45,299 bases of DNA. It comes from Rotaria sp. Its lineage: Eukaryota. Location of the stretch: positions 81,202 through 126,500 of the forward strand of contig CAJNUA010000162.1 of assembly GCA_905330235.1 (NCBI GenBank), given 5' to 3'. Shown in pieces: positions 5,402 through 28,269 of the stretch; positions within the stretch are counted from its first letter, which is position 1, and every line of letters begins with the position of its first letter. Made by a program: the position numbers and the translations under genes. Below the pieces are notes generated by a model that ran no database searches, was not told the origin of the DNA, and saw only the letters and a program-made list of their open reading frames with translations.

Positions 5402-7222
5402 TATCAAGTATTACTTAAAGGTTTTCGGCACTACGAGGATGTGGATATTTGTGCTAGCACAGAAAATACTCAAACTCTTACAAAAGTTAACTTTACTTCA
5501 AATATCAGTAAATGACCGTAATTAATATTTAATGAAATGGTTGGAAATTCAACGTTTAACCGAAATCAGACCATCATCTACTCAATTAAATAAGGCAATG
5601 TTACATGCCTCATTCATAAATATATTTATGTTATTATCTATACATCTAAATTATCATAGTTCCAATGAAGTTAATCAATTGGTTTTATTTTTATTTTCAA
5701 GACACGAATGAAAAATTTAGCGCTGCTATTAGAAATGGTATAGCTGATGTTAAATATCAATGATCTTAAAGTTTTTAGTCAAATCTGCTTTATATGATTG
5801 TCGAATAGACAAAAGAAAAGATTTCGAAAAAGTGGTTGCAGGTATAAAAAGTACAATGATATCTCTTTCAAAAGACGAAATAATACTTAAGACAGTTCTT
5901 ATTCTTATGGTCTCATCTGTGTTTACGGGTGAATAATTTTGTGATTATCTCTATATGTTGAATGATGACCATTTCCTTTTTGAATAACAAGAATATTCTC
6001 AGAACAAATCGAACCTTTAAGAAAATTCTTGTTAGGAGAATTTGCACTTTTTGGTAAAAATTGTTCCAGAACGTCAAACATTTATAGCATTTTTTTTCTA
6101 TTTTGCATCTGCTAGTTGTGATTTAACTAAAAAAGAAAAAAAGAATTTCTTTTTAACTATGCATGATAGTAAGAAACATTGATCTAAAATAGAACGTGAG
6201 ATGAATTTCTATTACCTATGTAACTTTTTCCAGGCCCCAATATAGTTGAAATCATGTTATTTCGTACGTTCATAATGCACCTGATCACGCGAATTTTTGT
6301 TGCATCTACGAACACAGAGTATTTCATTGTCAGTATAAAACAAACGTTTATCTTGTGTTCGGTACGGTAGAATATAAATGGAAACGTAAATGACTCGATA
6401 AGGTGCTGTTTGTAAATCTAGAAAGGTTATAAGTATAAAAAAAGAACGAAACATCATTATACAAATAGTATTTCTCAGTTTCTATCTGTGATAAATCTTT
6501 CAACTTCTGTATAGTTCTCGAAGTTTTCATTAGAAAGCGAAAGTTACTCGACTACAGAGGTAGTCTAGCAATTATCCATAAACAATAACGATTGACTTCA
6601 ATAGTTACCGTTCCTTATTTAGTTTAATTCCAACGCATCACTCATTTTTATTTTCGAACAAACTAAAACTTGAATTCAAATACAGAATATTTCAATAGGT
6701 GTGATTTTGATGTTGTTCTATCGATTTTTGAATATTTTTCGAATCTCAAAATTCTACAGCGAATTTAATGGTCTTATTAAACATTAATTTGGATTTATCA
6801 TGAATTACTCTTCTGTTCGATCTTCAAACTTTATTATGACCGAGATTGAGATAGAATGATCAAGTAAAGGTGACAATGCAACTGAAGTGGAGACCTTCAC
6901 CATACATTCGCACTCTCCGTTAGACAGCAACATATCTACCTGGTCTCTTCAGTATGTTAGATGACATATATCAATGTAACATAATTTTTTTTTATAATAA
7001 TGCAGAAAAACTATTGATTATAAACAAACAGAGTCAAGAAAACCATAGACGATGATATTTATATTACTTATCAAACTTAACGAAAGTTTTTATTACAAAG
7101 AAAATTTAAATTAATTGAGCTTCTAATATATTTACTTTGCATTTATGTAATTTTAGCAAAATAATAGTAGTCTTTTAATATTACATTATAAATACAACGA
7201 ATTGAAAAGTCTTCCTAGATAT

Positions 7223-7568
7223 TTAATGTTTTTCGACGAAATTAATAAGAGAATTAGCGATCTTTCCATGAAATGGAATAATATTCTTTCGTATTAATCT
7301 TGCACATAAACACTTCAAGCTAAGTTTTGTTTTAGTTTTAAGAAATTGCTTAATATTTGAATTCTTTGCAACGTCAATGGGCGTCTCTCTTAAAGCATTG
7401 ACATAATCTAGATGAGCACCAGAATCATAGAGATATTGGATTATAGTATCATCAACTATAGTTGCATTGGAAACAAATATATGAAGAGATGTGTTTCGAG
7501 CAGCATCTATTGCATTCATATTAGCACCGCAATGTAATAGTATACGAGTTGTATGTAAACATGGATAT
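7223..7568 (-). CDS. fem-1: Fem-1 homolog terminal exon (..LLHCGANMNAIDAARNTSLHI...SLKCLCARLIRKNIIPFHGKIANSLINFVEKH*), stop TAA included.
   Basis: ORF 7223..7519 plus upstream in-frame sequence from the acceptor at 7569-7570. Matches the FEM1 C-terminus (...[33 protein letters not shown]). Confidence 0.8.
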
Positions 7569-7623
7569 CTATAATAATAGATAACCTTTCAAAAATAAGT
7601 AATTTGAAATAAAAAAAACATAC

Positions 7624-7793
7624 TTGCAAATGTCATCGATGAAATAGTCATTTGCAGATGTATGATCACTTAGACTTAAATGTAGTAGAGAAGAACCAAA
7701 TGTTTGGGTAACATAATGACGTTGCACAATGAAGCAAATGTGTCGATAAAACAGTTTACGATCATCATGCGAAATCATTGATTTTGACAGACT
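7624..7793 (-). CDS. fem-1: Fem-1 homolog exon 2 (SLSKSMISHDDRKLFYRHICFIVQRHYVTQTFGSSLLHLSLSDHTSANDYFIDDICK). Acceptor AG at 7794-7795, donor GTATGT at 7618-7623.
   Basis: Matches FEM1B ...[38 protein letters not shown]. The phases join exon 1 (phase 0) and exon 3. Confidence 0.75.
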
Positions 7794-7851
7794 CTGAAAA
7801 AGATAATCTCGATACAAGAAACAAGAAAATTTAGGCTTGACACGTCGATAC

Positions 7852-9207
7852 CTGACTAACAATTGTTATTAAGAAAAGTAAAGTATGTAGATTATAATCA
7901 AAATCCTTCGTATTATGCTCTAACTCTTCAACTATTACTGTTATGACTGTCTTCCAAGGCACAATTGGTATCGATAATGATTTACGTAACATGTCACTAA
8001 AAATCGAAGCCCATTGACGCAAATCCTCAATGTCGATAGATAATGAGTACTGTCGACGTAAGCTAAGTTCATACAACCAAAAATCAGCTCCTCGATGATG
8101 TTGTGCATTGTCAGCTAGAAGGGCACCACGAAATCGAAGAGAACGACAGTATTTTGCATTAGTTGGTCCCAGCAAACGTTCACGTACGAGTAACGCTTCA
8201 GTGTACATATGATCATCGTTTAATCGAAGCTTTTCCAGCTCATCGATTGTTTGACATTCTTGTCGATTATTGAACACTTCGACAGTTGATAATCTTCGAA
8301 CTTTAGGAAGATTATGTTCTGATCGAAGTTCAAGTGCTTCATAGAAGCATTCAAACGATTTTTCAACATTAGAAATTCCATGTTCACGACAGACAAAAGC
8401 ACTTCCAAGTAATTCGTGTGCTTCGATTTGTTCAAGCAATGAACATTGTAGAGAAATAGCATCGACAAGATCAATTCGTCTCTTTTCAGCTGCTAATAAT
8501 AATGGAGACATGTGATTATGATTTGATCGAAAATTTCGAGCATTATGATTTAGTAACAATTGAACTAGTTCAAGTGAACCACGATCTACAGCAAAGTAGA
8601 GTGGTGAACGTCCATCATCTATTGATTCATTCACATCACAACTTAGTTCATCAACGAGATAAGTTGTCATTTCTAAATCTTCATTATAAACACTTAAAAT
8701 AAGATTCGTTTCATTATGTATTTTGTTAATATGTATATCAGCACCGTGTTCGTTCAAGTAACGAGCAATATTAATATTACCATTGGAACAAGCACAACGA
8801 AATGCTGTTGAATTTGTTTTAGTTGTATGATTAACTCGAGCTCCATGTTCAACAAGTAATTTCACGATTTTAAAATTATCAATGGCAGCTGCTGCCCATA
8901 AAACGGTCACATTCTCATACATCAATAAAGTTTGATCCTTTTCTTCGAGTTGTATATCATTTAGCACTTCAAGATCGAGTCCAGAATAATTAAGCAACAT
9001 CTGTACCATGTCTTCGAACTTATTTAAACAAGCAATCATGAGTAAAGTACTTTTTTGTTTATCCGGTTCGTTATATATTTGATTTAAGTAAATCTCGGCA
9101 TTGTTCATTGTTGACAAATGACTTTCGAGTGCTTTGACATCTCCTTGATGAACAAACGATAATAGCAAGCTGCTCACTTTAACACTGGAGTCATCATTGA
9201 ATTTCAT
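7852..9207 (-). CDS. fem-1: Fem-1 homolog (ankyrin-repeat substrate adaptor), exon 1. ATG at 9207 (MKFNDDSSVKV...) and donor GTATCG at 7851.
   Basis: ORF 7831..9228 (-) aligns along its whole length with vertebrate FEM1B/FEM1C (HGARVNHTTKTNSTAFRCAC vs [31 protein letters not shown] vs IEALELLGASF; RNLYTFLYL-like segment). Confidence 0.85.
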
Positions 9208-12200
9208 TGTAGTTGTAAATGCATACAAATAAAAAATAATATTTTACCTTGTATTTATAATCACACGTGCATGTTTTATTATGTAGATTTTTCTTTCTTT
9301 CTTCTGCGTTCTTACGCTATGTAAGATGAATCACAGTGCACACAGAAAATAAAAAACACTTTACTCAAACAAAACAATAAAAGAAAACTGTTTTGTTCAG
9401 TTTTTCTTTATCCTAAAATATTCGAACGTGAAATCTATCTTGAAGATGAAAACTGGCATGGTTTGTTTACAAAAAAATCTATGCATTAATACAAATTAAT
9501 TTATCAGTTTGGATCAAACATAGTTCATTTGATTCTTTAATAAGATTAGTGATACGTCTTCATGAGTTTTTACTCAATATCTGATTATAACGATCAAGCG
9601 CATAAAAGGATTGATGAGAAATGAAAGGAAAGACTTACTGATAAAGAAACATAAAAAAAAATTAAATTGTTCTTGAAAATCGTAGGATATATACATGCAT
9701 TCTATAATCAACACCATAAAGCGAGAAACAGTTAAGTTTTGAAATTGTCTAAAATTATTAATAATATTTTACTATTCTCGAATCATACTTGGTATCTGCT
9801 TATCAAAGAACTCAGTTTTGTATTTTCAAAACCGCGAGGTAATCATGAGTTTCTAATTTGAGTTATTAAATAAATGAAGACTTAATAACCTTATATCAAC
9901 TTGAAAATGATTGAAAAAATTTTGAGTCGGCATTTCACTGCAGAAAACACCAAAGATAAGTTTTAACTCAACTATAATTCTAATTAGAAATAGAAACGCT
10001 CGTAGAGATTTAGTGAACAGATTAAGATTGACATGGAAGACAGAACGACATATGGTACATCATCAGAATGTAATAAAGTTTCTACTTGAATTATAAATAT
10101 GAATTTAGTAAAACTTTATCTATGATTAGAGATATAAGCTGTTGATGACTTTGTTTTTTAATTTTGGTTTATATTCGAACTCGAATTAGATCACTATTCA
10201 AAACATTATACTATGCAACTAATTTGCTCCGTGATAAATCTCTATTAGCGCTGTTGTCACTAGTAAATTTAATGTTTCCATTAAATATAAGTTTGCACAG
10301 TGAAGATGTTTACTTTCCAACGATACGGTAATGAATTGTTGTAAATTTGAAGAAAGTATAGTAAATAGGAGAGAGGAAAATAATTCGACTGCTTTCATAT
10401 TAGAAACATGTGAAGTGTGGGTAAAGATGGAGATTCTCTTTGCGCCTTCATCCATGCCTACACGCATAAGTATTGAGAGCTTTTTTTGGTTAATCATCGT
10501 TCAAAAGGTGAACCATCACAAATTATAGGTATCCACAGTTATAACGTTTAGACAATGACAGATGATAAAATCAAGAACGAAATTTTAGAACTTGTTTATC
10601 GAATTTCTAGTTTTTTCTTCTAGACAAACTTGAAACAGATGAAGCTTATTTGTTTTATCATCTTTATGATCAACTTATTGGAAAACATGGCTGGCATTTT
10701 TATAGAATAGCTGATTAAGATGAAGAACGCCTGAGATTTGTTTCACAACAGATACTTGGTCAACCGGATTTTGAACTTTAGATGTGTTTAAATGATTTTT
10801 TTTATGCAAATGACGCAGTTAGAACATTGTTTGTTTTTTAATACACTTGAAACCCACTGAAATCATTCATTTTTTTTTTCAAAAATGCTTCTTCCTTTTT
10901 TTGACTAAATAAGAACAAATGTCTTAAATAAACAAGTTCAGATAAATTTTAATTAGTTGTACGAAATCTATCTGAATTACAGTAGATTACTTTTCTACAT
11001 ACAATTCTTTAGATTCATATTAGAGAAAAAGGCCGATAAAAGTCAACGAATATTGAATATATCATAGACAGATACTCATATTGAACGAAAATCTAGTAAT
11101 CAAGAAGAATTACTTGGAGAAATATTACGAATGAGCGAATAAACGTGAGTTAAAATAAAGTTTTAACATTGTTTTTCATTTTTCTGTACAATTTATATAA
11201 GTTAAGAGAGAAAAATAAATGTTTGTTAAGTAAATCGCAATTCAAGGTTGATCGAATGAAATGTTTGTTTAGCTTTAGTCAAAGAAATGCCTTTTTCAGT
11301 TTCATCGTTAAGGAATGATGCCGTTAAGAATGTAGCCAGGAATGTTGAGCTTTTTTCATTCTGTTCTTAGAAATTTTTAAATGATTTTCATCGTTTCATC
11401 TTAGGAAGTTAGAAAAGATATTTAAGCCTGAATCAAACATATCTTGTTACGACGAAAACTTATTCGCATTTGTTTCTTTGAAATCTATTCGTCTGATACT
11501 GTCGAACACATTTATCATTTGAATAATACTGATTGTGGAAAAGAGTAAATATCATTGTCCTCTGATATCGACAAAAATCGGACGAATACGAATCGAAATC
11601 ATTTAATCATCAACTGTACATCGTACAAAGAATTTTATTGCATTTAAGAGGCTTTATTTAAACGAATTTCAATTCTTCGAACTGCCTAAACAAACTTTTC
11701 ATTCTTTTACTGCTTCACGTAGTCACTTACTTTGTCATCTCTGCGTGTTGATGTATCTGCTGTTTGCAAAAAAATATTGGTGGACACACACTGCAAGATG
11801 AAATGTCACTATTGCGACTGATCTTTCTAATCGGCGAACAATTAAGTGGTAGAAAGAGAGAAAGGTAGCGCGAAAAATAACAAAACAACTCATCGGCAAG
11901 CACATCACTTCTTACGGCATACATTATTTAAGAGAATAGTGAAAGTAACATTTAAAAAGCTGAAAGTGAGCAGTGACTAAATTTCGTTCTTCTTGGAAAA
12001 ATTGTCTTTCAAACTTAAACTTCGCTTTGACGAAATCAAAAGTAATATTTCTGAAGATTATAGACTGGCAGTCGTTTTTTTTTTACTTAACAGTACTTGG
12101 TGTAGATTCTAAAATATTACTTAATTTGACTTCCTACGGAATATTGAAGAATTTCTGGAGACTTCACTCGAGATCTGCACTCGTTCAATTTCAGAGAATG

Positions 12201-13179
12201 TTTTCTTCCACATCTGACTTTCATTGATAAAAAATTTTTAAAAAGGGATTTTCTTTCGCGTACAAATCAAGCATTTCAGTGAATTAGATTGTATATGCAA
12301 TTCCACTTACTCCAAAAAAGTTCACGAAGAAACATCTCCTAGTATGACATCCCGTTCCTCATCGGGTATCTACCAATTTATGAAATACATGGAGATTAGA
12401 AAAAAATTAGAAGGGTTAATATTTCTGTCCTGTCCGGTTCGTTTTATGACTATTGCATTAAACTTTTGGCATCTTTTCTGACTGATTACCCTAAAAGTAT
12501 TCATGATCATTTTCATCTATCACAGAAGCATCATCTGCTAAAGCTAAAGCATTATCCTACCAGATTCTCGTAAAGTACACAAACTTTAGTGTAATGCTAT
12601 GTCTCACATGAGATCTGCCAAAGCAATAGTTCCTTAACAATTCTGTTGTTGCTTAGAATACATTTTTTATTATACATGTATTTCGTGTCGTCTCTTCAAT
12701 AGAAGATAATCGTACTTTCCACATCGTAAATTTCAATGAGATGAATGTTGCAGCTGCTGATTTTTATAACAAAAAGCAAGATGCTCACAAGTCAGTATAT
12801 CTACTAGAAGACGTGCGATATTATTTTTTTTTTACTGAACTAGTCTCGTGGTTCTCATTCATAGTATAAATATGAGCTTAACTTGCATTTACCATTTGAG
12901 AAAATTACTTCGTAAGATTTCCCTTAATACCATTCACCGAATTTTCTTTTTAGGGTTATGCAAAAAATACTTAATAATGAGCATACTTGTTCGTTCACCT
13001 TGGTAAGAAAAATAGGAGACATAACTTCCTGTGTGTTGTCGTTCATGTCAGAATTCTTTTCTTTTCCAGTTAAGAGAGTTGCGTATTCAATTATTATTTA
13101 AATGAATTTTTCTCATATCTTTTTTCCCTTCAATGACGAGTAGAAACAACATTGAACTTAATGCCTCTTTAAAAGTGTA

Positions 13180-13323
13180 ATGGCATCAGCATTCAATGTG
13201 AATCACCGTCTTTCTAATGATGAAATCAAAGATGAACCGAAACAAATGCTCACACCTATTGAAGATTATGAAGAAGAATCTCTCTTATCTCTCGAATTAG
13301 CATGTGAACCACTTAAAAGCATT
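13180..13323 (+). CDS. Putative exon 1 of the ART-CAP fusion gene (MASAFNVNHRLSNDEIKDEPKQMLTPIEDYEEESLLSLELACEPLKSI). It ends at the weak donor GTCTAA at 13324. Otherwise an in-frame TAA at 13327 follows.
   Basis: The frame is continuous with downstream exons if a 39-nt micro-intron (13324-13362, gtctaa...tcaaag) is removed. There is no in-frame ATG downstream before the ART domain, so translation must start here or in an unseen upstream exon. Confidence 0.35.
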
Positions 13324-13362
13324 GTCTAAGGTGAATTGAACAGAAATATTTTTATATCAAAG

Positions 13363-13559
13363 ACGAATTCAAAAACATCAGCAGACGGTTTGACTCAAGA
13401 TGAATCAGCCTCAATTCATCTTTACAGAACGGAATGGAAGAAATCCGAAGAAAGCCTCTATTGTATTTTGAATCGAATATTAAGAAAAGCAGATCGACGT
13501 TTTTTCAAACATTGGTTCAAATATCTCAAGTTATTTCTTACGGCACTTTTCAAATTATC
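13363..13559 (+). CDS. ART-CAP gene exon 2. It encodes the N-terminal helical region of an ADP-ribosyltransferase fold (ESASIHLYRTEWKKSEESLYCILNRILRKADRRFFKHWFKYLKLFLTALFKL). Donor GTGAGT at 13560.
   Basis: ORF 13336..13563. The pattern aromatic-x-x-x-LY..LN..LR......L...Y...L..AL.KL resembles the region preceding the catalytic Arg in R-S-E ARTs (vertebrate ART1-5, clostridial C3/iota-type toxins). The 48-nt intron 13560-13607 (GTGAGT...ACATAG) contains the TGA stop and preserves the frame. Confidence 0.55.
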
Positions 13560-13607
13560 GTGAGTCATTGTTTTGAAGACATCTACCAATTTGTATTTTG
13601 TACATAG

Positions 13608-14473
13608 ACCGATTGAACGAGGAACTGTTTGGCGTGGTGTAATCGAACATCTCCACGAGCTCTATCCTCGTGGATAATTGCAAGCATGGTGGGCCTTCAG
13701 ATCTTGCACAAGATCTCTCCAAGTACTGGAGTCACCTCAGTATCTTGGTATATCATGTACTCGAACGCTCTTCTTGATTAAGGCATCGAAAGGAAAAGAC
13801 ATTAGTCGATACTCGTGCTTCCGGAATGAGGATGAAATTTTACTTCTTCCTGGTACATACTTCGAAGTAAATAGTCAAATAATTGCGGGAGGATGGTTGC
13901 ATATTATTCATCTTCACGAATATAACCCTCCATATGAACTTCTAGTTTCACCTTTACCTGACTTGCATCCACAGAAGCATACTCCAAGTACGAAAGCCGT
14001 ACAAAAATTTAAGAAAGCAGTGTTAGACAGCAAGAAGGAAAAAACAAGCGTCCAGAGTAAACAGGTCGTGAGCCTGAATGAAGACGATTATGATGGTTCT
14101 AAATTTTGTATAGATGCACTGATTACTCATAATCAGTATCGCCTGCAACACAATACAGCAACACTAATAGCGAATGAACATTTATCTAAAGCAGCCACTG
14201 ACTGGGCACGCGAATTGATCAACATGAATGTACTTAAATATTCTCCCGACCAATGGCGACGTTATCGAAGCTCAGTGTTAGGCGAAAGCCTAGCCTATTT
14301 CATGGGACCTGTACTAAAAGGCGATCGTCAAAATGATATATGGACCGTGAAGTGCAACAACATGATCTTAGTATCTACCTTCAAGAGAAGTCCCTTCATT
14401 TTTCACAACTGGTATGGAAAAGCACCGAACAAGTCGGCTTTGATCGTTATCAAACTCTCGACAAAAAACAATG
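13608..14473 (+). CDS. ART-CAP gene exon 3, with ART catalytic core, linker and CAP domain. R motif TVWRGV; STS-like motif AFRSCTRS; catalytic ExE in TLFLIKASKGKDISRYSCFRNEDEILLLPGTYFEV; then a Lys/Ser-rich linker and a CAP/SCP domain (HNQYRLQHN...GESLAYFMGP...SQLVWKSTEQVGF). It is disrupted by an in-frame TAA at 13675-13677 and an apparent 1-nt frameshift near 14344-14372. Donor GTACAT at 14474.
   Basis: Hand alignment to rat/human ART2: YRG-17aa-FTSSS...GTLFIIKTCLGVYIKEFSFRPDQEEVLIPGYEVYQ vs WRG-19aa-FRSCTRS...RTLFLIKASKGKDISRYSCFRNEDEILLLPGTYFEV. CAP part vs GAPR-1/GLIPR2: HNEYRQKHGV/HNQYRLQHNT, GENLAW/GESLAY, HYTQVVWAKS/HFSQLVWKST. Confidence 0.6.
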
Positions 14474-14565
14474 GTACATTGATAATATTGCAACATAGAA
14501 TAAGCATAGTTTCATTGTGAATCATTTTTGATCAACTTGAAATCGAAAACTTTTCTAATCTTTAG

Positions 14566-14626
14566 GGATGGTGTTGCATTGTACTATCCACCAGGGAACT
14601 TTCCTAACCAGTATCTGTCAATGTAG
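14566..14626 (+). CDS. ART-CAP gene terminal exon. It encodes the CAP-domain C-terminus (W)DGVALYYPPGNFPNQYLSM*.
   Basis: A 92-nt GT...TTAG intron (14474-14565) joins in the correct phase (tg|g = Trp). The peptide matches the GAPR-1 C-terminus YVVCRYCPAGNYVNQNIY. Confidence 0.55.
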
Positions 14627-16999
14627 AGTCATAAGACAATCATGGAACGGAGAATGAACTGTTATTGAAATGAAGTATTCGGTTACACTAGTTATGTATT
14701 GTGCATTTTATAGAACTAACTGCTGAATGTGACGGAGAACTGCAGTCAACTCTGGCCATCGCGAATGTAGCAATAAAATCATATGATGGTGTCGCATCTG
14801 GTAAGTATCAAAATATATATTGTTGAACGCGAGAGTATATGATAATGACCACTTTGGAAGTATTCTCTCAGTACTGATCGGAGAATCATTTCCACGATGA
14901 TTGGCATATCATTCTAGACTCATTTACATAACAACCATTTCATTGTTGTTTCATCAAACAAGAAAACTGTTTGTTTTCTTTCAGATCTCATTTTTAGATC
15001 AATTAAAATTTTCTAATAATTCTAGTTTCGTAGAATCTTGTACAAGTCATTTTATGTTTAACTGAATAGTAACTATTTTAAGCGATATAATCACAATACA
15101 AGTGAAAAAATAGTGAAGAAGGCTTTTCAAAAATGTGTTTTATACCTCATAATTATGAGGTACCTTTTTATAATAGATTGGACTCAAATGGAACCAATTA
15201 AAGGAATATTGCAAGGTAAATAAATATATATCGATTACTGGCAATCGAAATCATAGAATTTCAATTCATACGAAAAACCTTTAACAATGTTACTCTGATG
15301 AATAACTATTACTCAATTTTTCAACATAAGGTTGATAGTTATCTTTATTTTAATAATATCATTTTTATTGTGAAAAATGAAAACGTAACAGAGAATTTTT
15401 ATTTCTAGCAATAAAAAGATTTGATTTTATTCTAACAGAATAAAAAAACAACTAGAACTAAATAAGAACTAAGAAAGTGATACTTACTTAAGGTACGATA
15501 TTCAAAGTACTCAACAAAAAATCATTTCTCTTAATTGTATCGCTTAGACATTCAACAAAAACATAACACTTTCAACGATAATGTAAGGTACACATTTTTT
15601 GGATAAAAGAGACCGCAGAATTATATCCGCCTAAGTCATTCGAAACATGTATGTATTCGACAAAATTGTGCGAACTTTAAAATTTTATTCTTTATAGGGA
15701 TTATTGAAGTTATTTGGTTTTTTGAAGTCAGGATGTGAGTGTGAAGCCTGAGACAAGATTCAGACCCACACCCAAAATGTTTCAGGATATTATTTTCAAA
15801 GTCTTCACCAATGAACTTATTACTCAATGCCCACTAACTTCTTCGTTTTCGTGGATGCAACACAGAACCGTCATGGTAAGATTTGTACTTGAATCGGCCG
15901 AATGACAATAACTAAGATTCTGGATAGAAATAGAGAACAGCCTTGATCATTTCTTAACAAAAACTGAATTCATATAAAAGTATCACGTAAAACATCAATT
16001 ATACATACGTATTTACCAACGACAAAAGTATTACGAATAGTATTTTTGATATAAAATATAGAATTTGTGTTTGAAACAATAGCATAAAGATAGATATGAA
16101 TAGTACAAGAATAGACACTTACAATATAATTAGAAGTTTACAACGAAGATACAAGGTGTTCATATATAGTTTATGTTTTTCTCAATGCATTTTTGAAGAA
16201 AATGTGTGCATAAATCATTGCACGCTTCAGTGGTCACACTCTCCAGTTAAGAACATCATTTTGTAGTATGCAAATGATCAAGTTGTAGGCCTGATTTTAA
16301 CGCTAGTGAGTCAGTACTGAACATTATCAAACAGAAAATCAAACTCAAGAACTTGAAATTACAAGGTCAACAAAAGAATGCGCACGATGAAGTATAAAAT
16401 TGATCTATTAACACTGTATCTTCATTTTAAGCTTTTAATTATATTGGAAGAACCTGTTCTTGCACTATTCATATCTATCTTCATAAAATTATTTCGTCCA
16501 TAAACTATAAATTTAACATCAAAATACGATTCGGAATACTTTTCTCGTAGGTAGTATAATCAATCGTTTTGTAATGAACTTGTTTCACTACCAGCATGCA
16601 TTTCTCAGTGAGAAAGTAAATTACAAATAGATCGCGATGCAATTTTAGCAATTCGGAATTTTGTCAAACTGAATAGTTTATTACACAATAGCTGCCAAAA
16701 ATAATATTCTTTACATAACAGATACAACATTAAAACAAGGTTCATCGAATTGCAATATATTAATTATTCCAAGGATATTTCTCATGAGCACAGTTCTGTT
16801 CAATAGACCAAAACTGATAAATTCGTTTTTTTTTCTTTATTTCAATCCTGAAAACATTGTAAATATCACAGAAGTAGAATAATTCTGTCTTGTGAAATGA
16901 AACACATGATAATAATAATTCGATCGAGTTTATTAGTTATGTAAAAAAAGAAGAATTTCAAAGCTTATTTGTAAGCAAAATAAATATTAGTCTTTGTAA

Positions 17000-17461
17000 T
17001 TATGTGAGTATGGCATTGACACATCGTCGGCAACTTCCACAACATTTTTGATAACTTCTGCATTGAGCATCTGTTATACATGGTGGAAAGCAAAAAGAAG
17101 GACGTCCAATAATAACAGGTGAGGATACTACCAATGGACAACAACCTGGATGCTCATTTGGACAACAATAAGCTCTATCGTATTGATTTATTTTACATGT
17201 ACCACCATTGGCTGCACATCTTCTTTGTCCTTGTCCACAAGTCACATTTCTGATTGGTTGACCATATTTGCATGGATTGCACCTATCTGGCAATGGAAAT
17301 AATAAACAAAAAATACTTGGATCAATGATAATTGGAGGAATCGTTCGAATTGGTTTTAGTGCAGCACGCGGTTTGTCAACATGAATGGGATTGTCTTCTG
17401 CTGCACATAAAGCAATAATAGCAAAAGTTGCTAGTAACAAGCTTATAATTAACTTTTTCAT
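17000..17461 (-). CDS. Secreted cysteine-rich protein with a C-terminal WAP (four-disulfide-core)-like module. Signal peptide MKKLIISLLLATFAIIALCAA. Single exon.
   Basis: ORF 17000..17461 (-). It has a hydrophobic N-terminus and 22 Cys. The C-terminal CFPPCITDAQCRSYQKCCGSCRRC fits the WAP C..C..D..C....KCC...C..C pattern. Confidence 0.5.
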   Translation of the reverse strand: MKKLIISLLLATFAIIALCAAEDNPIHVDKPRAALKPIRTIPPIIIDPSIFCLLFPLPDRCNPCKYGQPIRNVTCGQGQRRCAANGGTCKINQYDRAYCCPNEHPGCCPLVVSSPVIIGRPSFCFPPCITDAQCRSYQKCCGSCRRCVNAILT

Positions 17462-19536
17462 GATGCTTTGATAGTATCAAACTCGAATAGCCTTATGTAA
17501 AAAGATTACTTATTTTGCACAATCGATGAGATTTATATAGTATCATAGTCTTTGGTAGAGCATGACTTCAACTAAAAAACAAAACTAATAAAACGTAGGA
17601 GACACCATATCGTCTTTTTTTTATGAATAATATTGATCTATCTTTGGCAAAATCGTAGATTAGCCTTGACGTATAAAATATTAATCTAATGATAGAGTAT
17701 GTCGTAATACAAAACATGTCTATATTTACGCATTTAGTTTTTTGAATCTTTTCTTTCATTGACGTCATTTATGATAGATAGGTTTTGCGCATCATATTCA
17801 TCGATGCTTGACTAAGCTCCTTGGCTTTCTAAAGATACTACTTATCAAAAGTAGATAAGTGAAACAATAACAGATATATACGCTAATATAAAAATAGTAC
17901 TATGATCATCTTTTCTCAAATATTCACTAGGACTAAATTGTTTGTTTTATCGAAAGACTTACGACAAGTTAAGTTGGAAGTAGATTCAAGAGGTTTATTG
18001 AATTATGCTTTGCAATTTGAACGTTGATTATAATACAGAATAATCAACAACAACAAAAATAATGATGAAAAAAGAGGAAAATATAAAAAAATAAGGATTC
18101 AACACTTCATATACTTTATTTGTTTAGAAATATTTAAAATATGACTTAAAAAAGATTGACATTTTTTTCTTCTTATTTTGTGCAATTATACTGATGAAAA
18201 CGAATAGATTAGTCATCAAAATCAGAAATCGTTGTATGTAAATAAATTTTACATTAATATTCTTACCCATGATAAAAAAATCGAGTTCGTTTTGAAGCTA
18301 AAAGCAAACTGTATATTTATTCTATTTTTAGTTGAACTATAACCTTGACAATCAACTATATGCATGACAATGTTCTGAATTCAAACATTCTTTCATAAAG
18401 TTTTTATAGAATAATAAAACATCTGGTTCCTTTAGATTTGCAGTATATTATCATCAAAATTATGTAATAATTGAATTTATTTCACGATGGTGTGAGTTTG
18501 CATGCGACTGAGTGTACGAATAAGTGAAGAAAAGATTTCCTCTTCAGTTACACACAAATTCACCTAACTAGCTCATCTCACTTTAAAAATCATGAAGACA
18601 CTGATTATTTGAGAAATATACTACGTAGTTGGACGTGAATAGATGTGAAGATCTTGTTTTCATCTACGCTCATTCGTTTTATTAGAATCAACAAAGCAAT
18701 TGTCGTAGATGCTGTTATTGTCTGTTGTAGCAGTTAGTAGATTGAATACGAACGATAACGAATCGTGATTAACTTATAATTTGATAAATACGAAGAATGA
18801 TTTGTGCGAGATATATTCCTATCATATCTGAATATCTTTTCACAAACTAAAACTTCAAGTCAAACTTTTCTTAGACAAGTTAGATTTAGCTGATAAACCA
18901 AATGTGTCACTACATAATGACGTCATGTGCTTGTCAGTTAGACTTCCACCATTGACAATACATATCTAATAGACACTGTTTCATTGTGAAAAAAGACAAG
19001 GAATGATTTGCCTCTTAGAAGTTTTTAGATTTCCTTGAAAAAAAAACAATGATTTGTTTTTGATTGTATTCAATTGGAACATGAAAAAAGTATTTACTAA
19101 ATTTTTGGATTGCTGCGTATTAGTAAGAGCTTGTTATTTGAATCAGTTTCAAAAATATAACACTGATCAATACAATCACAACAAGCTTATCATTTGTTCT
19201 ACTTGCACTCGATTTAGTATGAAATGTGATCTAAGAAATCTGTGAAGCAATAATATAACATATATTGAGTCAAGCTATCAAGTATCATTGAGTCTCAACG
19301 AAAAATTACAATTTCTTCCCTAATAATAACGATATAAAATACTGTCAATATATATGATCACCTATTCATTCATGGATATCGTGAATGAAGAGTCTTTTTT
19401 TCGTGGAGGTGTGCTGATTCTCAGATGCATGCTTTCAGTTCGCTCAAATTGTTACAACGGCTAAATAGACTAGGTCTTCTCGAAAACCTTTCGTTACTCA
19501 TGCGTGTTTTTTTCCAATGATTTCTATTTTTTTTTA

Positions 19537-20027
19537 TTAAATAAAACGTCGTAAACCAAAGTATAATACGAATGCAAAGATAGACGAAAAGAAAATTATT
19601 TTGTTGCTTATAGCTCTTTTCAACACGAAAAGTAAAGAAAGAAAGACAAGTAAAAATAAAGAAGCAATAACGGATCCAGAGAGATTTATGTATGTAAAAT
19701 GTTCATCTGGTCCTAACATGACTAATTCTGGTCCAAAAATGATTCTTGAATTTTTCTCTTTGTAATCAAACACTTGCACGGCTTGATTTTGTGGTACTCG
19801 ATAGGTAACTAATCTGGATTTGTCACGTTTTGTCGTTTGAAATGACGACGTTACTGTTGTTTTGGTACGTCTATCAACTAAAGAATCTCGTTGAAGAAAC
19901 TCTTCTATGCTTAATGGTAATTCTTTTTCCCAGAGTTCTTCATCTTGTGTTAACATGTATGTATTACCAACAATTGCACGAACACGGCCAGTTTTTAAGT
20001 CTCGAACATAGATACCTTCATTTTCAT
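19537..20027 (-). CDS. MVP: MVP terminal region as seen here ([38 protein letters not shown]...[35 protein letters not shown]). The ORF then continues into a hydrophobic tail [45 protein letters not shown] and ends at TAA 19537-19539. A 39-51 nt micro-intron separates it from exon 5. The true 3' boundary is uncertain: there is either a splice donor near 19676 or read-through to this stop.
   Basis: ORF 19537..20154. Homology to MVP residues about 380-520 ([38 protein letters not shown]...[34 protein letters not shown]) ends at ...INLSG. AATAAA lies immediately after the stop on the minus strand (about 19527-19535). Confidence 0.55.
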
Positions 20028-20078
20028 CTAGAACAGTATCTAATAAATAAACAAGATATAAAAGATCAAGCAACTTAC

Positions 20079-20165
20079 CCAAAGGTATCGCTTTTCTTTT
20101 TTGTAAGACTTCGACTTGGACTGGTGGTATGTATTCTTTTGGTCCTCTTATCACCCATTTGTCGC
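20079..20165 (-). CDS. MVP: MVP exon 5 ([29 protein letters not shown]). Acceptor ttttaag, donor GGTAAGT.
   Basis: Matches MVP [30 protein letters not shown]. It is separated from exon 4 by a roughly 1.6 kb intron that contains a repetitive element. Confidence 0.75.
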
Positions 20166-20244
20166 CTTAAAAGAAATTTGAATTGTTCAAAAATTCATAT
20201 AGAATATACAGTTTTAATTCTTGTGTAGGGAGAGCCTAGTAGAG

Positions 20245-21705
20245 TCCTACGGAGTCAACTTTTTCGATTCCGAAACCCGACCGCAACTCCAAAAATTTTA
20301 ATTTTTTCATTTCCCCAGGTTGAAAAAGTACGATCGTAAACGACCGTATACAAAAAAATACGACGGATTACGATGATCGTATACGATGTCTGTATACGTC
20401 ACTGGTATACGATGCTATACAATAATCGTAAATGACCGTTCAATCCGACCATCGTAAACGGCGTTCGTATACGATCGTATTTTGTCGTGTTCAACGCTAA
20501 GTAATTTTCTTTGTACAAAAGAATTTTTTTAATATTTATATCTGTTACAATCGTACAATGTGCAGTAAATATGTTTTGTTATAAGGGACAATTTTTTTTC
20601 TATACGATCCCTCTCGATGGCACAACGAACCTTAAATGTTATTTTAAACTAAACAAGTTTTTTTTCTTTTTTATTTAAATTTATATCAATAGAAAAAAGA
20701 AAAGCAAGTATTAATATATTTAAATAAATTTTACTTTTTAACAACGATACATCGAACAGTAAGTTAGAATTTATGTAAATAATTTTTTTTTTTTATTTTT
20801 AGATTTATTATAAGAATAAATGAAACAGTAAGTATTTACTGAGATAAATTGGGGTGCCCAGCCAGACTGGGCATCCCAAATATTAGTCTTTATATTATTT
20901 GGAGAATGAGAAGGGGGAAATAGGACAAATTTATGTGGAATAATGTGAGAAACGACGTTGTATACCACCGCGTACGATCGTTTACGGTGGTTGTATATAC
21001 GTCGTATTTCGTCGTATACGACACGACGATATACGGTTGTATACGATTGCATACGACGTCGTATACGATCGTTTACGACTGTCGTAATGCTCGTCCTGGG
21101 CCGATTCTAACTCCGAAAAATTACGAATTTTTTTTTTTGTCTGAAATGAGCAACATATAATCTATTCTATTGTTCAAATTTTAACATAGACATAGGCAAT
21201 TGGATAAAAAGTTGAATGAATGAAGAAAAGTCAAAGAATTATTAAAAAATTGATCGTAAATTTCTTTTTCAGTTTTTGTGCGTAAAAAAAAATAAAAAAG
21301 ATTGCAAAGTTTTTGACAAGAAAACAACTTGAAAAACTGATACATGAAAAACATGAAGCTGTAAAACTCGACACGTACTATACCCAAACAATCAAGAATT
21401 GATGATGAAGACAGTTATAGTATTCAGATGAAATTAAAATATTTTTTGATTAATCTCATTATGTTTTCATATAGCTGATTTTTAGAATAGTATAACTAAA
21501 AGTTGATCGTCCTTTTTTTACCTTAAAGCTCATTCTTAATCTATGTAATAAATTATGTTGTTTCTTTTATTATTGTGAAAAGTAAAGCTATTGGTTTTGT
21601 GAAAAGTAAACATTTTTGTCGGAGGCAGTTACAATTTTGACTCTGACTCCGATCACGACTCCGATGGGGTCGGAGTCATAATTGGGTTTCGGAGTTCCCC
21701 GCAGG
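20245..21705. mobile_element. A roughly 1.5 kb TIR-bounded non-autonomous DNA element inside the MVP intron. The terminal inverted repeats are imperfect and about 45 bp (TCCTACGGAGTCAACTTTTTCGATTCCGAAACCCGACC... / ...GGGTTTCGGAGTTCCCCGCAGG). Internally it carries inverted sub-repeats (20300-20500 vs 20930-21135) rich in the CpG-containing motif CGTATACGA / CGTTTACGA.
   Basis: The reverse complement of 21650-21705 aligns with 20245-20290 (shared cct[a/g]cgg...tccgaaaccc...gacc). The flanks ctagtagag / tctctagag may be an imperfect 8-9 bp target duplication. The element is markedly GC/CpG-rich relative to the surrounding AT-rich sequence. Confidence 0.5.
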
Positions 21706-21771
21706 TCTCTAGAGCCTAGCCATTGGTAATTTGTCTACACTAAAAACATTAATAAAATTCTTTTCTCTTAC

Positions 21772-21957
21772 CCGGCACACGAGTCACATTGTCTATTTCA
21801 TCATCAAACGATTCAATACATTTTACTACGATACCTTCATCTTCACTCAATACGTACACATCTTGAATTTCTTTCTCTAATTGTTCATTAGGTTGTAAGA
21901 AAAAGGATTTGTCACCAACGACTAATTTCTTTTTGCCCCATTGGTTTTTACCGTTAG
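21772..21957 (-). CDS. MVP: MVP exon 4 ([63 protein letters not shown]). Donor GTAAGA.
   Basis: ORF 21749..21991. Matches [48 protein letters not shown]. Confidence 0.8.
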
Positions 21958-22018
21958 CTTGAAAAGAAAATAGAAATAATAATAAGTCCAATCATAGTTT
22001 GACATCTAGCATTCTTAC

Positions 22019-22441
22019 ATGTGACTGGATTTAAGATGACACAATATTGTCTTGAATTCAATGTTTTTATATCAACAATTGCCACAAGTTGTTCATAGAC
22101 ATTCAAAATATGTGTTTCAGTTTGCTCTTTTGTCACGAGCCATTCGTCCCCATTATTTCTTGTTTGACCAAAATCATCTGTGAATGTGTTTAGTGCACGT
22201 AAATGTAAAGCTTTTTTATCTGTTACAACATAGCCATTTTCAATGCTCACAACTGTTTCATAAGCCAATGGTAAATAAGCACCCAATTGTTTTACTAACC
22301 AGTTTTCACCCACCACACGACGTTGATCCATACGATCGACAAGTTCTTTTTTAGCACTTAATCTTAGTGCTTGATTTGGACCGATCACGGTAGCAACAAT
22401 GTGTTCTTCAACCGATACTTCTTTGCGTGGTGTATAAGTGC
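22019..22441 (-). CDS. MVP: MVP exon 3 ([37 protein letters not shown]...[44 protein letters not shown]). Donor GTAAGA.
   Basis: ORF 21954..22388 plus the upstream in-frame segment from the acceptor tttttcag at 22442-22449. Matches MVP repeat domains 3-5 (QNQALRLRARKE, TGEEWLVT, HNYCVILDPV). Confidence 0.8.
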
Positions 22442-22535
22442 CTGAAAAATTAAAATATTTGTATAGTTAACGTACACTTATCATGACTCGAGTGAATTCA
22501 CTAAATGAATTATAGCTGAATACGTAGTTACTTAC

Positions 22536-22656
22536 CTGGTCCTTCGAAAAGCCATTCGTCTCCAGCTTTTCGCTGTTCTCCATTATCATCAAAATCCAAA
22601 ACGGCTTTTAATCGTAATGCTGAACTAGCCGCAACATATTTTAAAGGTGTGGCAGC
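22536..22656 (-). CDS. MVP: MVP exon 2 ([41 protein letters not shown]). Acceptor ...ttccag, donor GTAAGT.
   Basis: Hand translation of the rc. Matches [32 protein letters not shown]. The phase (0 in, 1 out) is consistent with its neighbours. Confidence 0.8.
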
Positions 22657-22715
22657 CTGGAATAATATTAATAGATACTATGAAAAATTACTTTAAATAA
22701 TGATATTCAAAGTAC

Positions 22716-23063
22716 CTGTTTTAAAACTTCACCAGGATACAATGGAAATGGTTCTTCATAATCGTTTTCCTGTCTAACATCTAGGCTACCATGCAACAAT
22801 TTTGCTTGACCATTTTTGTCGAATTGTGCTTGATTATTTTCATTCTTCACAACTGGATTTTCAATAACACAGTAGTGTCTTGGTGGTAGAGTAATCATTT
22901 TATCAGGCCCAAAAACTATTGTCTCATTGCCTTGTTTCAAGAACTTGTGTGGACCGATTTCCAATCGTGTTATACTTGTATTCTGGTCTAATACGTGAAT
23001 ATAATAATAAGGTGGAATACGATAGACAGGACCTGTCTGAGCCGGTAAACTCTTAGAAGACAT
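22716..23063 (-). CDS. MVP: Major vault protein (MVP) exon 1 (MSSKSLPAQTGPVYRIPPYYYIHVLDQNTSITRLEIGPHKF...PFPLYPGEVLKQ). ATG at 23063, donor GTACTT.
   Basis: ORF 22707..23156. Near-identity of IPPYYYIHVLDQN...PPRHYCVIENPV...PFPLYPGEVL with the vertebrate MVP N-terminus (IPPYHYIHVLDQN...PPRHYCTVANPV...PFPLYPGEVL). Confidence 0.85.
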
Positions 23064-27993: not shown

Positions 27994-28152
27994 ATAGTTA
28001 CAATTTTCATGTAGACAAGCCCAATTCTCTTGTGTTTTACTACAATCAACACAGGGTGGTTGATGCTTATCATCATATTGAGACGATTGAAGTAATACAT
28101 AAGCACGATCACCCAAATGAGGACAATCATACTTCGGTACGATAGAAAATGG
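27994..28152 (-). CDS. Exon 2 of a ZnF-UBP (ubiquitin-binding zinc-finger) protein, probably a ubiquitin-specific protease (PFSIVPKYDCPHLGDRAYVLLQSSQYDDKHQPPCVDCSKTQENWACLHENCNY). Donor GTGAGT.
   Basis: ORF 27898..28281 (-). C-P-H-L...C..C......W.CL..C matches the ZnF-UBP signature found at the N-terminus of USP3/USP16/USP44-like proteases and HDAC6. Confidence 0.5.
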
Positions 28153-28209
28153 CTTTAAAAAGAAAACAAAATTCATATTCAATTTGATCAGTATAGTATT
28201 TTTACTTAC

Positions 28210-28269
28210 ACCTATTTGATTTTCATCATTCATCTGCGCGGAAGATGCAGCTGTATTTGATCGACTCAT
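28210..28269 (-). CDS. Exon 1 of the ZnF-UBP gene (MSRSNTAASSAQMNDENQIG). ATG at 28269, donor GTAAGT at 28204-28209.
   Basis: It is in frame with exon 2 across a 57-nt GTAAGT...TTTAAAG intron. Downstream exons (below 27994) are not identifiable as ORFs of 60 aa or more. Confidence 0.4.

What the first reader, a model, noticed from the sequence alone, without database searches (positions are those of the whole stretch)
13180..14626. Single gene fusing an R-S-ExE mono-ADP-ribosyltransferase domain to a GAPR-1-like CAP/SCP domain
One reading frame (13180 to 14520, then one further spliced exon) encodes an N-terminal domain carrying all three hallmark motifs of arginine-specific mono-ADP-ribosyltransferases. 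These are the catalytic Arg (TVWRGV), an STS-like motif (AFRSCTRS) 19 residues later (the same spacing as rat ART2), and the ExE catalytic loop (NEDEILLLPGTYFEV, compared with DQEEVLIPGYEVYQ). A K/S-rich linker follows, then a complete CAP domain with HNQYR / GESLAY / (H)FSQLVW / YYPPGNFPNQY motifs (compared with GAPR-1 HNEYR / GENLAW / HYTQVVW / YCPAGNYVNQ). No signal peptide is visible, so it resembles group-2 (intracellular, GAPR-1-like) CAP proteins. ART domains are toxin/effector enzymes in bacteria and ecto-enzymes in vertebrates. An ART-CAP architecture in an invertebrate genome is, to my knowledge, undescribed. It could reflect horizontal acquisition or a lineage-specific effector.
Basis: partly seen in the sequence, partly recalled or inferred. 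Interest (0 to 1): 0.9.

Follow-up and report, generated by a model that had tools for sequence, protein, structure and literature searches.

The report
Decayed ART–CAP fusion gene in rotifer
A bdelloid rotifer locus does join an arginine ADP-ribosyltransferase domain to a GAPR-1-like CAP domain in one frame, but two premature stop codons and a frameshift show it is a dead gene, not a working new enzyme.

Summary
The window comes from the bdelloid rotifer Rotaria sp. Silwood2. At 13180-14626 (+) both domains are real. The repaired translation passes Pfam's thresholds for ART (PF01129) and CAP (PF00188). The reading frame is open across the ART/CAP junction.

It is not one intact reading frame:
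- In-frame TAA at 13327 and at 13675, both inside blocks that are colinear with intact paralogues.
- A 1-nt deletion at 14343/14344 that splits the CAP domain.
- A truncated C-terminal tail.
- Loss of one CAP tetrad histidine (His to Tyr).

All three main lesions are identical in six independent assemblies, and no gene is called there.

The ART half belongs to a very large intracellular bdelloid ART family that is fused to many other domains. The CAP half is a 5'-truncated, divergent paralogue of a conserved membrane-anchored GAPR-1-like gene. Both halves keep family-specific introns, so this is neither recent horizontal transfer nor a retrocopy. pN is far below pS in both halves, so each was kept by selection for most of its history and inactivation is recent.

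No ART+CAP protein appeared among the hits listed. Verdict: a lineage-specific chimeric pseudogene, a minor curiosity.

The parts
13180..13559 (+). ART exon 1 (codons 1 to 126 2/3), the N-terminal helical part of the bdelloid ART family
   Evidence: 62-63% identical to P0001 and P0002 over aa 1-126; colinear alignment.
13327..13329 (+). Premature in-frame TAA no. 1
   Evidence: Aligns with Asp in the conserved block 'KILDHELKQN' of 20 paralogues, which have no intron there. Present in all six assemblies. TAA is a working stop in the neighbouring genes.
13560..13607 (+). Intron 1 (48 nt, GTGAGT...ACATAG, phase 2)
   Evidence: Same position and phase as the 49-nt introns of P0001 and P0002. It contains the TGA that interrupts the raw frame.
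13608..13960 (+). ART exon 2: catalytic core. Arg codon 13633-13635, Ser/Cys/Thr 13702-13710, Glu-Asp-Glu 13828-13836
   Evidence: Pfam ART hit. The family profile aligns these residues with R/S/E of rat ART2.2.
13675..13677 (+). Premature in-frame TAA no. 2, between the catalytic Arg and the S-x-T motif
   Evidence: Aligns with Lys/Arg in 'YPKGKKFAWW'. Present in all six assemblies.
13699..13701 (+). Polymorphic codon: AGA (Arg, window) or AGT (Ser) at the first Ser of the family 'SSCT' motif
   Evidence: A/T variant at 13701 among the six assemblies. The family has Ser, Thr or Asn here.
13961..14082 (+). K/S-rich linker holding the fusion breakpoint
   Evidence: ART paralogues align up to about 13990-14097 and TM-CAP proteins from 13990-14083 onward. 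There is no significant similarity inside the linker.
14083..14473 (+). CAP domain, matching aa 111-241 of the 273-aa membrane-anchored CAP protein P0042. 1-nt deletion between 14343 and 14344; tetrad His to Tyr at 14239-14241
   Evidence: tblastn HSPs in two different frames (69% and 73% identity) meet at 14343/14346. Homologues read IWYRE where the window reads TGG-AC-CGT. Alignment to GAPR-1 is; H53Y is.
14474..14565 (+). Intron 2 (92 nt, GT-AG, phase 2, inside the Trp codon)
   Evidence: Identical position and phase to the single intron of P0042 (80 nt) and P0056 (55 nt). The same intron is retained in the predicted protein P0114.
14566..14626 (+). Last CAP exon (DGVALYYPPGNFPNQYLSM, TAG stop at 14624-14626), truncated tail
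   Evidence: 15 of 15 residues identical to P0056 and P0060. The DNA alignment suggests a second 1-nt deletion near 14621 and loss of the conserved tail RSxLEDxRLA.

Best explanation
This is a recently inactivated, lineage-specific chimeric gene of Rotaria sp. Silwood2. Its 5' two-thirds is a divergent member of the very large, intron-bearing, signal-peptide-less bdelloid family of R-S-E arginine ADP-ribosyltransferases. Its 3' third is the GAPR-1-like CAP domain of a divergent paralogue of a conserved bdelloid membrane-anchored CAP gene. That CAP gene was cut inside its first exon, so the N-terminal about 107 residues with the transmembrane helix are missing. The two parts are joined in frame by a K/S-rich linker.

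Shown: the locus can no longer make the fusion protein. Translation would stop at codon 50. A second stop lies between the catalytic Arg and the Ser motif. A 1-nt deletion splits the CAP domain.

Inferred: the join arose at the DNA level, by a deletion or rearrangement, because both family introns are kept. While it worked, it was a cytoplasmic ART whose C-terminal CAP module acted as a targeting or binding domain, like the many other ART-plus-partner proteins of bdelloids. It then decayed.
For: Source and domains:
- The window is 100% identical to a Rotaria sp. Silwood2 assembly.
- Pfam ART and CAP both pass their thresholds.

Lesions:
- Both TAA codons fall in colinear conserved blocks of 20 paralogues.
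- The frameshift is a single missing T in IW(Y)RE.
- All three lesions are identical in six assemblies, and no gene is called there.
- TAA terminates the neighbouring annotated genes.

Relaxed constraint:
- The CAP tetrad His is replaced by Tyr.
- The window differs at 17 of 95 positions that are invariant in six TM-CAP proteins.
- There is an Arg/Ser polymorphism at the Ser motif.
- The C-terminal tail is lost.

Origin and history:
- Intron positions and phases are shared with paralogues in both halves.
- No N-terminal TM-CAP sequence occurs anywhere in the window.
- Selection acted for most of the history. CAP: dN 0.19, dS 1.3-1.5, ratio about 0.13-0.15. ART: pN 0.29 against pS 0.73.
- Only 1 stop per 126-245 codons in frame, against 6-20 out of frame.

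Context:
- Bdelloid ARTs are fused to Rhomboid, Kelch, LRR, Laminin_G_3, GPCR and kinase/TPR domains.
Against: - No transcript data could be examined.
- It is not shown that the chimera was ever functional. The two halves could each have been kept by selection as separate genes and joined only by the event that killed them. An in-frame join has about a 1 in 3 chance.
- dS is saturated, so the dN/dS values are rough.
- The six assemblies are of one species and may share collapsed haplotypes, so an intact divergent copy elsewhere in the genome cannot be excluded. None is annotated.
Confidence: 0.85

Rival explanations
1. It is an intact, expressed ART-CAP gene. On this view the stops and the frameshift are sequencing or assembly errors, or are bypassed by readthrough, recoding or unusual splicing.
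For: Apart from three or four lesions the frame is very well preserved. R, S and ExE are present. pN is far below pS.
Against: - The same lesions occur in six independently built assemblies.
- TAA ends the neighbouring annotated genes.
- Both TAA codons lie inside conserved, intron-free protein blocks, so splicing cannot remove them without destroying the fold.
- A conserved CAP tetrad His is lost and the conserved tail is lost.
- Annotators called no gene here.
Confidence: 0.05
2. The chimera never functioned. On this view two adjacent, independently functional genes (a stand-alone ART and a TM-CAP paralogue) were fused by a recent deletion that removed the 5' part of the CAP gene, and the product was dead on arrival. 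This is a sub-case of the pseudogene reading.
For: - Most family members are ART plus a short tail, and all 28 CAP relatives are CAP only.
- No ART+CAP protein appeared among the listed hits, and the metagenome scan confirmed no relative of the locus.
- The locus lies in an interval (10355-15817) with no counterpart in the partly syntenic Rotaria sp. Silwood1 loci, next to an inversion.
Against: - The junction is in frame and the roughly 40-codon linker is open, which has a chance of about 0.04 at the stop density of the other frames.
- Both halves are similarly lightly decayed.
- Neither half has a close relative (53% and 72% identity at best). That fits one old gene as well as two.
Confidence: 0.35
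3. The ART domain, or the whole gene, was recently acquired from bacteria by horizontal transfer.
For: Bdelloids are known for foreign genes (established knowledge). The ART profile also matches bacterial toxins: Vis, HopU1, SpvB and PAAR-linked toxins.
Against: - The ART half has a spliceosomal intron at the same position and phase as paralogues in Rotaria sordida and R. magnacalcarata.
- Named relatives come from Rotaria, Adineta and Didymodactylos.
- GC content (0.33-0.35) matches its surroundings.
- An ancient bacterial origin of the whole family was not tested.
Confidence: 0.03

Closest known systems
Bdelloid rotifer 'NAD(P)(+)--arginine ADP-ribosyltransferase' family (Pfam PF01129; e.g. 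P0001 Rotaria sordida, P0006 Adineta vaga)
   Same: 45-56% identity over about 250 aa. The N-terminal extension, the intron position and the conserved W-R-G, S-C-T and E-D-E-I-L-L-P-G blocks are shared. There is no signal peptide. Variable C-terminal extensions or partner domains are typical of the family.
   Different: The partner here is a CAP domain, which none of the listed members has. This copy carries two nonsense codons and departs from 11 of 94 near-invariant positions.
Vertebrate ecto-ARTs (rat ART2.2, PDB 1OG3/1GXY) and bacterial R-S-E toxins (Vis, HopU1, SpvB)
   Same: The fold-defining R / S-x-S / (Q/E)-x-E triad aligns with the family profile (E 1.1e-05 to ART2.2).
   Different: There is no signal peptide or GPI signal. 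Sequence similarity is very low. The bdelloid family is predicted to be intracellular and multi-domain.
Human GAPR-1 / GLIPR2 (PDB 1SMB, 4AIW)
   Same: It is the best solved match for the CAP half (E 9.2e-13) and for its parent family (E 2.2e-19). Both are compact, cysteine-poor CAP domains without a signal peptide.
   Different: The bdelloid parent has an N-terminal transmembrane helix, read directly from the sequence. That GAPR-1 is instead anchored by N-myristoylation is from memory, not tested here. The window copy lacks any anchor, has Tyr in place of the tetrad His that aligns with 'LKHSPE', and is frameshifted.
Conserved bdelloid membrane-anchored CAP proteins (P0042, P0056, P0057, P0060; 271-273 aa)
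   Same: 65-73% identity over 147 aa and an identical intron position and phase.
   Different: The window copy lacks residues 1 to about 107 (the TM helix) and the conserved C-terminal tail. Its synonymous sites are saturated against them (dS 1.3-1.5, against 0.32 between the Rotaria sp. Silwood1 and Adineta steineri proteins P0042 and P0056), so it is an old paralogue and not a recent copy.

Membership tests
R-S-E arginine mono-ADP-ribosyltransferases (Pfam ART, PF01129) | Sequence passes the Pfam ART gathering threshold | tested here: met
   32.7 bits against a cutoff of 22.3, aa 63-224 of the repaired translation.
R-S-E arginine mono-ADP-ribosyltransferases (Pfam ART, PF01129) | Catalytic Arg, Ser-x-Ser/Thr and Glu/Gln-x-Glu at the positions of ART2.2 | tested here: met
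   The family profile aligns wRG, SsC and edEiLLlPg with VYRG, TSS and QE(I)VLIPG of 1OG3. The window has R, S-C-T and E-D-E, but Arg replaces the preceding Ser in this allele.
R-S-E arginine mono-ADP-ribosyltransferases (Pfam ART, PF01129) | Uninterrupted coding sequence able to produce the domain | tested here: not met
   TAA at 13327-13329 and at 13675-13677, within conserved blocks and present in six assemblies.
R-S-E arginine mono-ADP-ribosyltransferases (Pfam ART, PF01129) | NAD-dependent arginine ADP-ribosylation activity | not testable with these tools
   This needs an enzyme assay of a repaired or paralogous protein.
Vertebrate-type ecto-ART | N-terminal signal peptide and C-terminal GPI signal | tested here: not met
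   The N-terminus MASAFNVNHRLSNDEIKDEPKQ is hydrophilic, as in all 20 aligned paralogues. This is a direct reading; no predictor was run.
CAP / SCP superfamily (PF00188), GAPR-1-like subgroup | Sequence passes the Pfam CAP gathering threshold and GAPR-1 is the nearest solved relative | tested here: met
   32.1 bits against a cutoff of 21.1. 1SMB E 9.2e-13 over aa 7-146.
CAP / SCP superfamily (PF00188), GAPR-1-like subgroup | Conserved His-Glu-Glu-His tetrad (residue numbering in GAPR-1 is from memory) | tested here: not met
   The window 'LKYSP' aligns with GAPR-1 'LKHSPE' and with 'LKHSPDQ' of all six TM-CAP proteins. The other three tetrad positions are kept.
CAP / SCP superfamily (PF00188), GAPR-1-like subgroup | Uninterrupted coding sequence | tested here: not met
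   A 1-nt deletion after 14343 leaves the two halves of the domain in different frames.
Bdelloid membrane-anchored CAP gene family | N-terminal about 107 aa with a transmembrane helix | tested here: not met
   tblastn with four family members finds nothing for aa 1-83 anywhere in the window.
Bdelloid membrane-anchored CAP gene family | Single phase-2 intron in the Trp codon of 'KKQW|YG' | tested here: met
   Intron 14474-14565 lies at the same site as in P0042 and P0056.
Processed (retro) pseudogene | Loss of the parental introns | tested here: not met
   Both parental introns are retained.
Recent horizontal gene transfer | No introns, foreign composition, nearest relatives outside the host clade | tested here: not met
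   Introns are shared with bdelloid paralogues, GC content equals that of the flanks, and all named relatives are bdelloid.

The most novel reading that the evidence does not exclude
The ART-CAP fusion may have been a functional, long-lived, bdelloid-specific intracellular protein. On this reading a GAPR-1-like CAP module (a membrane/lipid-binding domain, from general knowledge of GAPR-1, not tested here) directed an arginine ADP-ribosyltransferase to its targets. It would be one member of a large, unstudied repertoire of modular ART-plus-partner proteins in bdelloids, perhaps a conflict or immunity system. Intact orthologues may survive in Rotaria lineages not yet sampled.
Probability: 0.25. 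Interest if true: 0.45.

Novelty: new variant of a known kind. Interest (0 to 1): 0.2.

Why it matters
The locus itself matters little, because it cannot make the protein. It is a clean example of how bdelloid genomes build and discard chimeric genes by DNA-level rearrangement. The more useful lead is the family behind it. Bdelloids carry hundreds of intracellular arginine-ART genes joined to very different partner domains: rhomboid, GPCR, Kelch, LRR, laminin-G and kinase/TPR/MLKL-N. I found no description of this family in the searchable literature. If it is a modular effector or sensor repertoire, it would be worth a dedicated study.

Tried and rejected
- **Alternative genetic code (TAA as sense, as in ciliates).** Rejected: the neighbouring annotated genes end in TAA and the taxon is a rotifer.
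- **Splicing out the first TAA with a 39-nt GT-AG intron (13324-13362).** Rejected: it would delete a block conserved and colinear in 20 paralogues.
- **P0001 and P0002, the closest ARTs, as possible orthologues with a CAP downstream.** Their contigs are not syntenic and hold no CAP.
- **Multi-stretch or long-alignment hits of the junction search** (P0192, P0226, P0128, P0129, P0188, P0218, P0244, P0261, P0130, P0087). None has both ART and CAP.
- **JGI metagenome scan with the junction protein.** 114 pattern matches, none confirmed.
- **Departures from near-invariant ART positions as a decay test.** Inconclusive: 11 of 94 for the window, against 0-3 for close relatives but 10-15 for other distant intact members.
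- **Repeats or mobile-element ends flanking the locus.** Nothing convincing.
- **Literature searches** for bdelloid/rotifer/Adineta plus ADP-ribosyltransferase, and for ART plus CAP-domain fusions. Nothing relevant.
- **Structure prediction.** Not run, because the locus is non-coding as it stands.
Full report
**Source and setting.** The window is AT-rich eukaryotic DNA (GC 0.26-0.37).
- An exact look-up of the 153-aa secreted cysteine-rich protein encoded at 17000-17461 (-) returns Rotaria sp. Silwood2.
- Six assemblies of that species carry it. Locus L002 is 100% identical to window 12900-14900 and the other five are 99.85-99.90% identical.
- Neighbouring genes are an alpha/beta hydrolase, a multi-ankyrin-repeat gene that I call Fem-1-like from the look of its sequence (Pfam shows only ankyrin repeats), and the major vault protein.

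- With stops masked, the intron removed and the frameshift repaired, the conceptual protein passes both Pfam gathering thresholds: ART PF01129 (32.7 bits, aa 63-224) and CAP PF00188 (32.1 bits, aa 300-411).
- One ORF (13678-14520) runs without a stop from the second half of the ART domain, through a K/S-rich linker, into the CAP domain.
- The coding frame has 1 stop in 126 and 1 in 245 codons, where the other frames have 6-20.
- The region is not a single open frame, however. It holds TAA at 13327-13329, a 48-nt GT-AG intron at 13560-13607 that contains a TGA, TAA at 13675-13677, a frameshift after 14343, and a 92-nt GT-AG intron at 14474-14565 before the last exon.

**The lesions are real mutations, not gene structure.**
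- Aligned with 20 intact bdelloid paralogues, the first TAA falls on the Asp of 'KILDHELKQN' and the second on the Lys/Arg of 'YPKGKKFAWW'. Both blocks are colinear and intron-free.
- The second TAA lies between the catalytic Arg (13633-13635) and the Ser motif (13702-13710).
- In the CAP half, the homologues read IWYRE. The window reads TGG-AC-CGT, one T short, so tblastn has to switch frame at 14343/14346.
- A DNA alignment of the 3' end suggests a second 1-nt deletion near 14621. The conserved tail RSxLEDxRLA is lost.
- All six assemblies share both TAA codons and the deletion. The only coding variant is 13701 A/T, Arg or Ser at the first Ser of the family 'SSCT' motif.
- None of the assemblies has a gene called at the locus.
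- TAA is the stop codon of the two neighbouring genes checked, the WAP-like gene (an exact match to annotated protein P0121) and the ankyrin-repeat ORF. This excludes a variant genetic code.

**What the two halves are: the ART half.**
- It belongs to a very large bdelloid family annotated 'NAD(P)(+)--arginine ADP-ribosyltransferase'. There were 426 hits in the word-indexed search. There were 1455 50%-identity cluster representatives at E <= 0.001 to a 221-aa junction query (its ART half gave nearly all of the listed hits; its CAP half also recruits CAP proteins).
- Named members come from Rotaria, Adineta and Didymodactylos. The best identity is only 53-57%.
- A profile of the family finds rat ecto-ART2.2 first (E 1.1e-05), then the bacterial toxins Vis, HopU1 and SpvB. 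The alignment places the family's W-R-G, S-S-C and E-D-E-I-L-L-P-G on the R, S and E of ART2.2.
- The proteins start with a hydrophilic N-terminus and have no signal peptide. They are therefore predicted to be intracellular, unlike vertebrate ecto-ARTs.
- The 48-nt intron is at the same codon and phase as the 49-nt introns of P0001 (R. sordida) and P0002 (R. magnacalcarata).
- Family members carry many different partner domains: Rhomboid, Kelch, LRR, Laminin_G_3, a 7TM receptor, and a kinase/TPR/MLKL_N protein with two ART domains.

**What the two halves are: the CAP half.**
- It is 65-73% identical to a conserved set of 271-273-aa bdelloid proteins (P0042, P0056, P0057, P0060).
- Those proteins consist of a short N-terminal segment, one hydrophobic transmembrane helix (YWYVWLILSIGVVALITANVLICCYF), a charged spacer and a cysteine-poor CAP domain.
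- Their nearest solved relative is human GAPR-1 (E 2.2e-19). For the window copy the value is 9.2e-13.
- The parental gene has two exons, with a phase-2 intron in the Trp codon of KKQW|YG. The window intron 14474-14565 is at exactly that site.
- The window copy begins inside parental exon 1, at about residue 84-110. Nothing resembling the first 83 residues exists anywhere in the window.
- It is therefore a 5'-truncated DNA-level copy, not a retrocopy, and not a product of intron-mediated exon shuffling.

**History.**
- CAP half: Nei-Gojobori estimates over 147 codons give dS 1.30-1.48 and dN 0.19 (ratio 0.13-0.15) between the window and P0042 (Rotaria sp. Silwood1) or P0056 (Adineta steineri). 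Between those two proteins dS is 0.32 and dN 0.10.
- ART half: pS is 0.73 (saturated) and pN 0.29 against P0001 and P0002.
- Both halves are therefore old, divergent lineages that spent most of their history under purifying selection. Three or four disabling lesions in about 1.3 kb point to recent inactivation.
- Signs of relaxed constraint agree with this. The window departs at 17 of 95 positions that are invariant in six TM-CAP proteins. One of them is the tetrad His that aligns with 'LKHSPE' of GAPR-1, now Tyr at 14239-14241. There is also the Arg/Ser polymorphism in the Ser motif.

**Is the architecture found elsewhere?** Not among the hits I could list.
- None of the 120 best hits to the whole conceptual protein has both domains. 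A fused relative would have outscored every single-domain hit.
- An exhaustive HMMER search of 1.84 billion representatives with a 221-aa junction query gave no protein matching both halves among the best 150.
- The ten candidates with several stretches or long alignments have ART or CAP, never both.
- All 28 relatives of the CAP half are CAP only.
- A JGI metagenome scan confirmed nothing.
- Only the top of each list was inspected, so a distant ART-CAP protein cannot be ruled out.

**Synteny.**
- In the partly syntenic loci L012-L014, two blocks are conserved: the WAP-like block (window 15817-18249) and the ankyrin-repeat block (6662-10355). I assign L012-L014 to Rotaria sp. Silwood1 by inference: the cluster label of P0269 and two assembly accessions shared with the P0042 loci.
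- The ankyrin-repeat block is inverted there. The 2.7-kb interval between the blocks has no ART or CAP. Window 10355-15817 has no counterpart.
- Synteny is otherwise poor, and only 20 kb per locus could be seen. This is weak evidence that the locus is lineage-specific and lies at a rearrangement breakpoint.

**Interpretation.**
- The best-supported reading (confidence 0.85) is a chimeric ART-CAP gene that is now a pseudogene.
- Whether the chimera ever worked is open. For a functional past: the junction is in frame, the linker is open, and both halves are equally lightly decayed. Against: no intact relative with this architecture was found, and each half could have been selected as a separate gene until a deletion fused and killed them. 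I put the dead-on-arrival sub-case at about 0.35.
- If the chimera did function, the most likely mechanism, by analogy with the other bdelloid ART-partner proteins, is a cytoplasmic arginine ADP-ribosyltransferase with a C-terminal CAP domain supplying localisation or target binding. This step is inference only.
- Recent horizontal transfer is not supported, because of the shared introns, the bdelloid-only named relatives and the host-like composition. An ancient bacterial origin of the family was not tested.

**Verdict.** The finding is a decayed, species-restricted domain fusion within a family where fusions are commonplace, so its interest is low. The family itself is the better lead.

Noticed in passing
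Related proteins P0011, P0021, P0024, P0055, P0072, P0074, P0079, P0087, P0097, P0120, P0244, P0261: Bdelloid rotifers hold a very large family of signal-peptide-less PF01129 ART domains fused to Rhomboid, Kelch, LRR, Laminin_G_3, a 7TM receptor, or kinase+TPR+MLKL_N. A junction query with only half of each domain (ART half plus CAP half) matched 1455 50%-identity cluster representatives, nearly all of the listed ones through the ART half. I found no description of this family in the searchable literature.
   Followed up: partly
L018 6001-6902 (P0042) and L021 3001-3871 (P0056): A GAPR-1-like CAP protein with an N-terminal transmembrane helix is conserved in Rotaria, Adineta and Didymodactylos. 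Synonymous divergence between the Rotaria sp. Silwood1 and Adineta steineri genes is only 0.32 over 147 codons. Other comparisons here are saturated. The low value is unexplained.
   Followed up: partly
window 13701: An A/T polymorphism among the six Rotaria sp. Silwood2 assemblies changes Arg to Ser at the first Ser of the ART 'SSCT' motif. It is the only coding variant in the pseudogene.
   Followed up: yes
window 6662-10355 versus 15817-18249; loci L012-L014: The ankyrin-repeat (Fem-1-like) block is inverted relative to the WAP-like gene block in loci attributed to Rotaria sp. Silwood1, and the major vault protein gene is not adjacent there. Window 10355-15817, which holds the ART-CAP locus, has no counterpart.
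   Followed up: partly
window 16044-16174 and 16394-16524: An inverted repeat with 131-nt arms (74% complementary, 219 nt apart) lies upstream of the WAP-like gene. The unit 16394-16543 matches two places in L012.
   Followed up: no
window 17000-17461 (-): A single-exon gene for a 153-aa protein with a hydrophobic, signal-peptide-like N-terminus (my reading) and many cysteines. A relative is labelled as a WAP domain-containing protein by UniRef. It has no Pfam hit. Relatives at 49-69% identity occur in other Rotaria assemblies and in metagenomes.
   Followed up: partly
window 43757-44335 (+) and 27898-28281 (-): Two ORFs of 192 and 127 aa have no Pfam match. The first starts with a Cys/His-rich stretch. 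The second lies in the window stretch 27759-28372 that matches (76% nucleotide identity) a gene region annotated zf-UBP in the Rotaria socialis loci.
   Followed up: no
window 19537-23156 (-): Major vault protein gene in several exons (Vault, Vault_2, Vault_3 and Vault_4 repeats).
   Followed up: no
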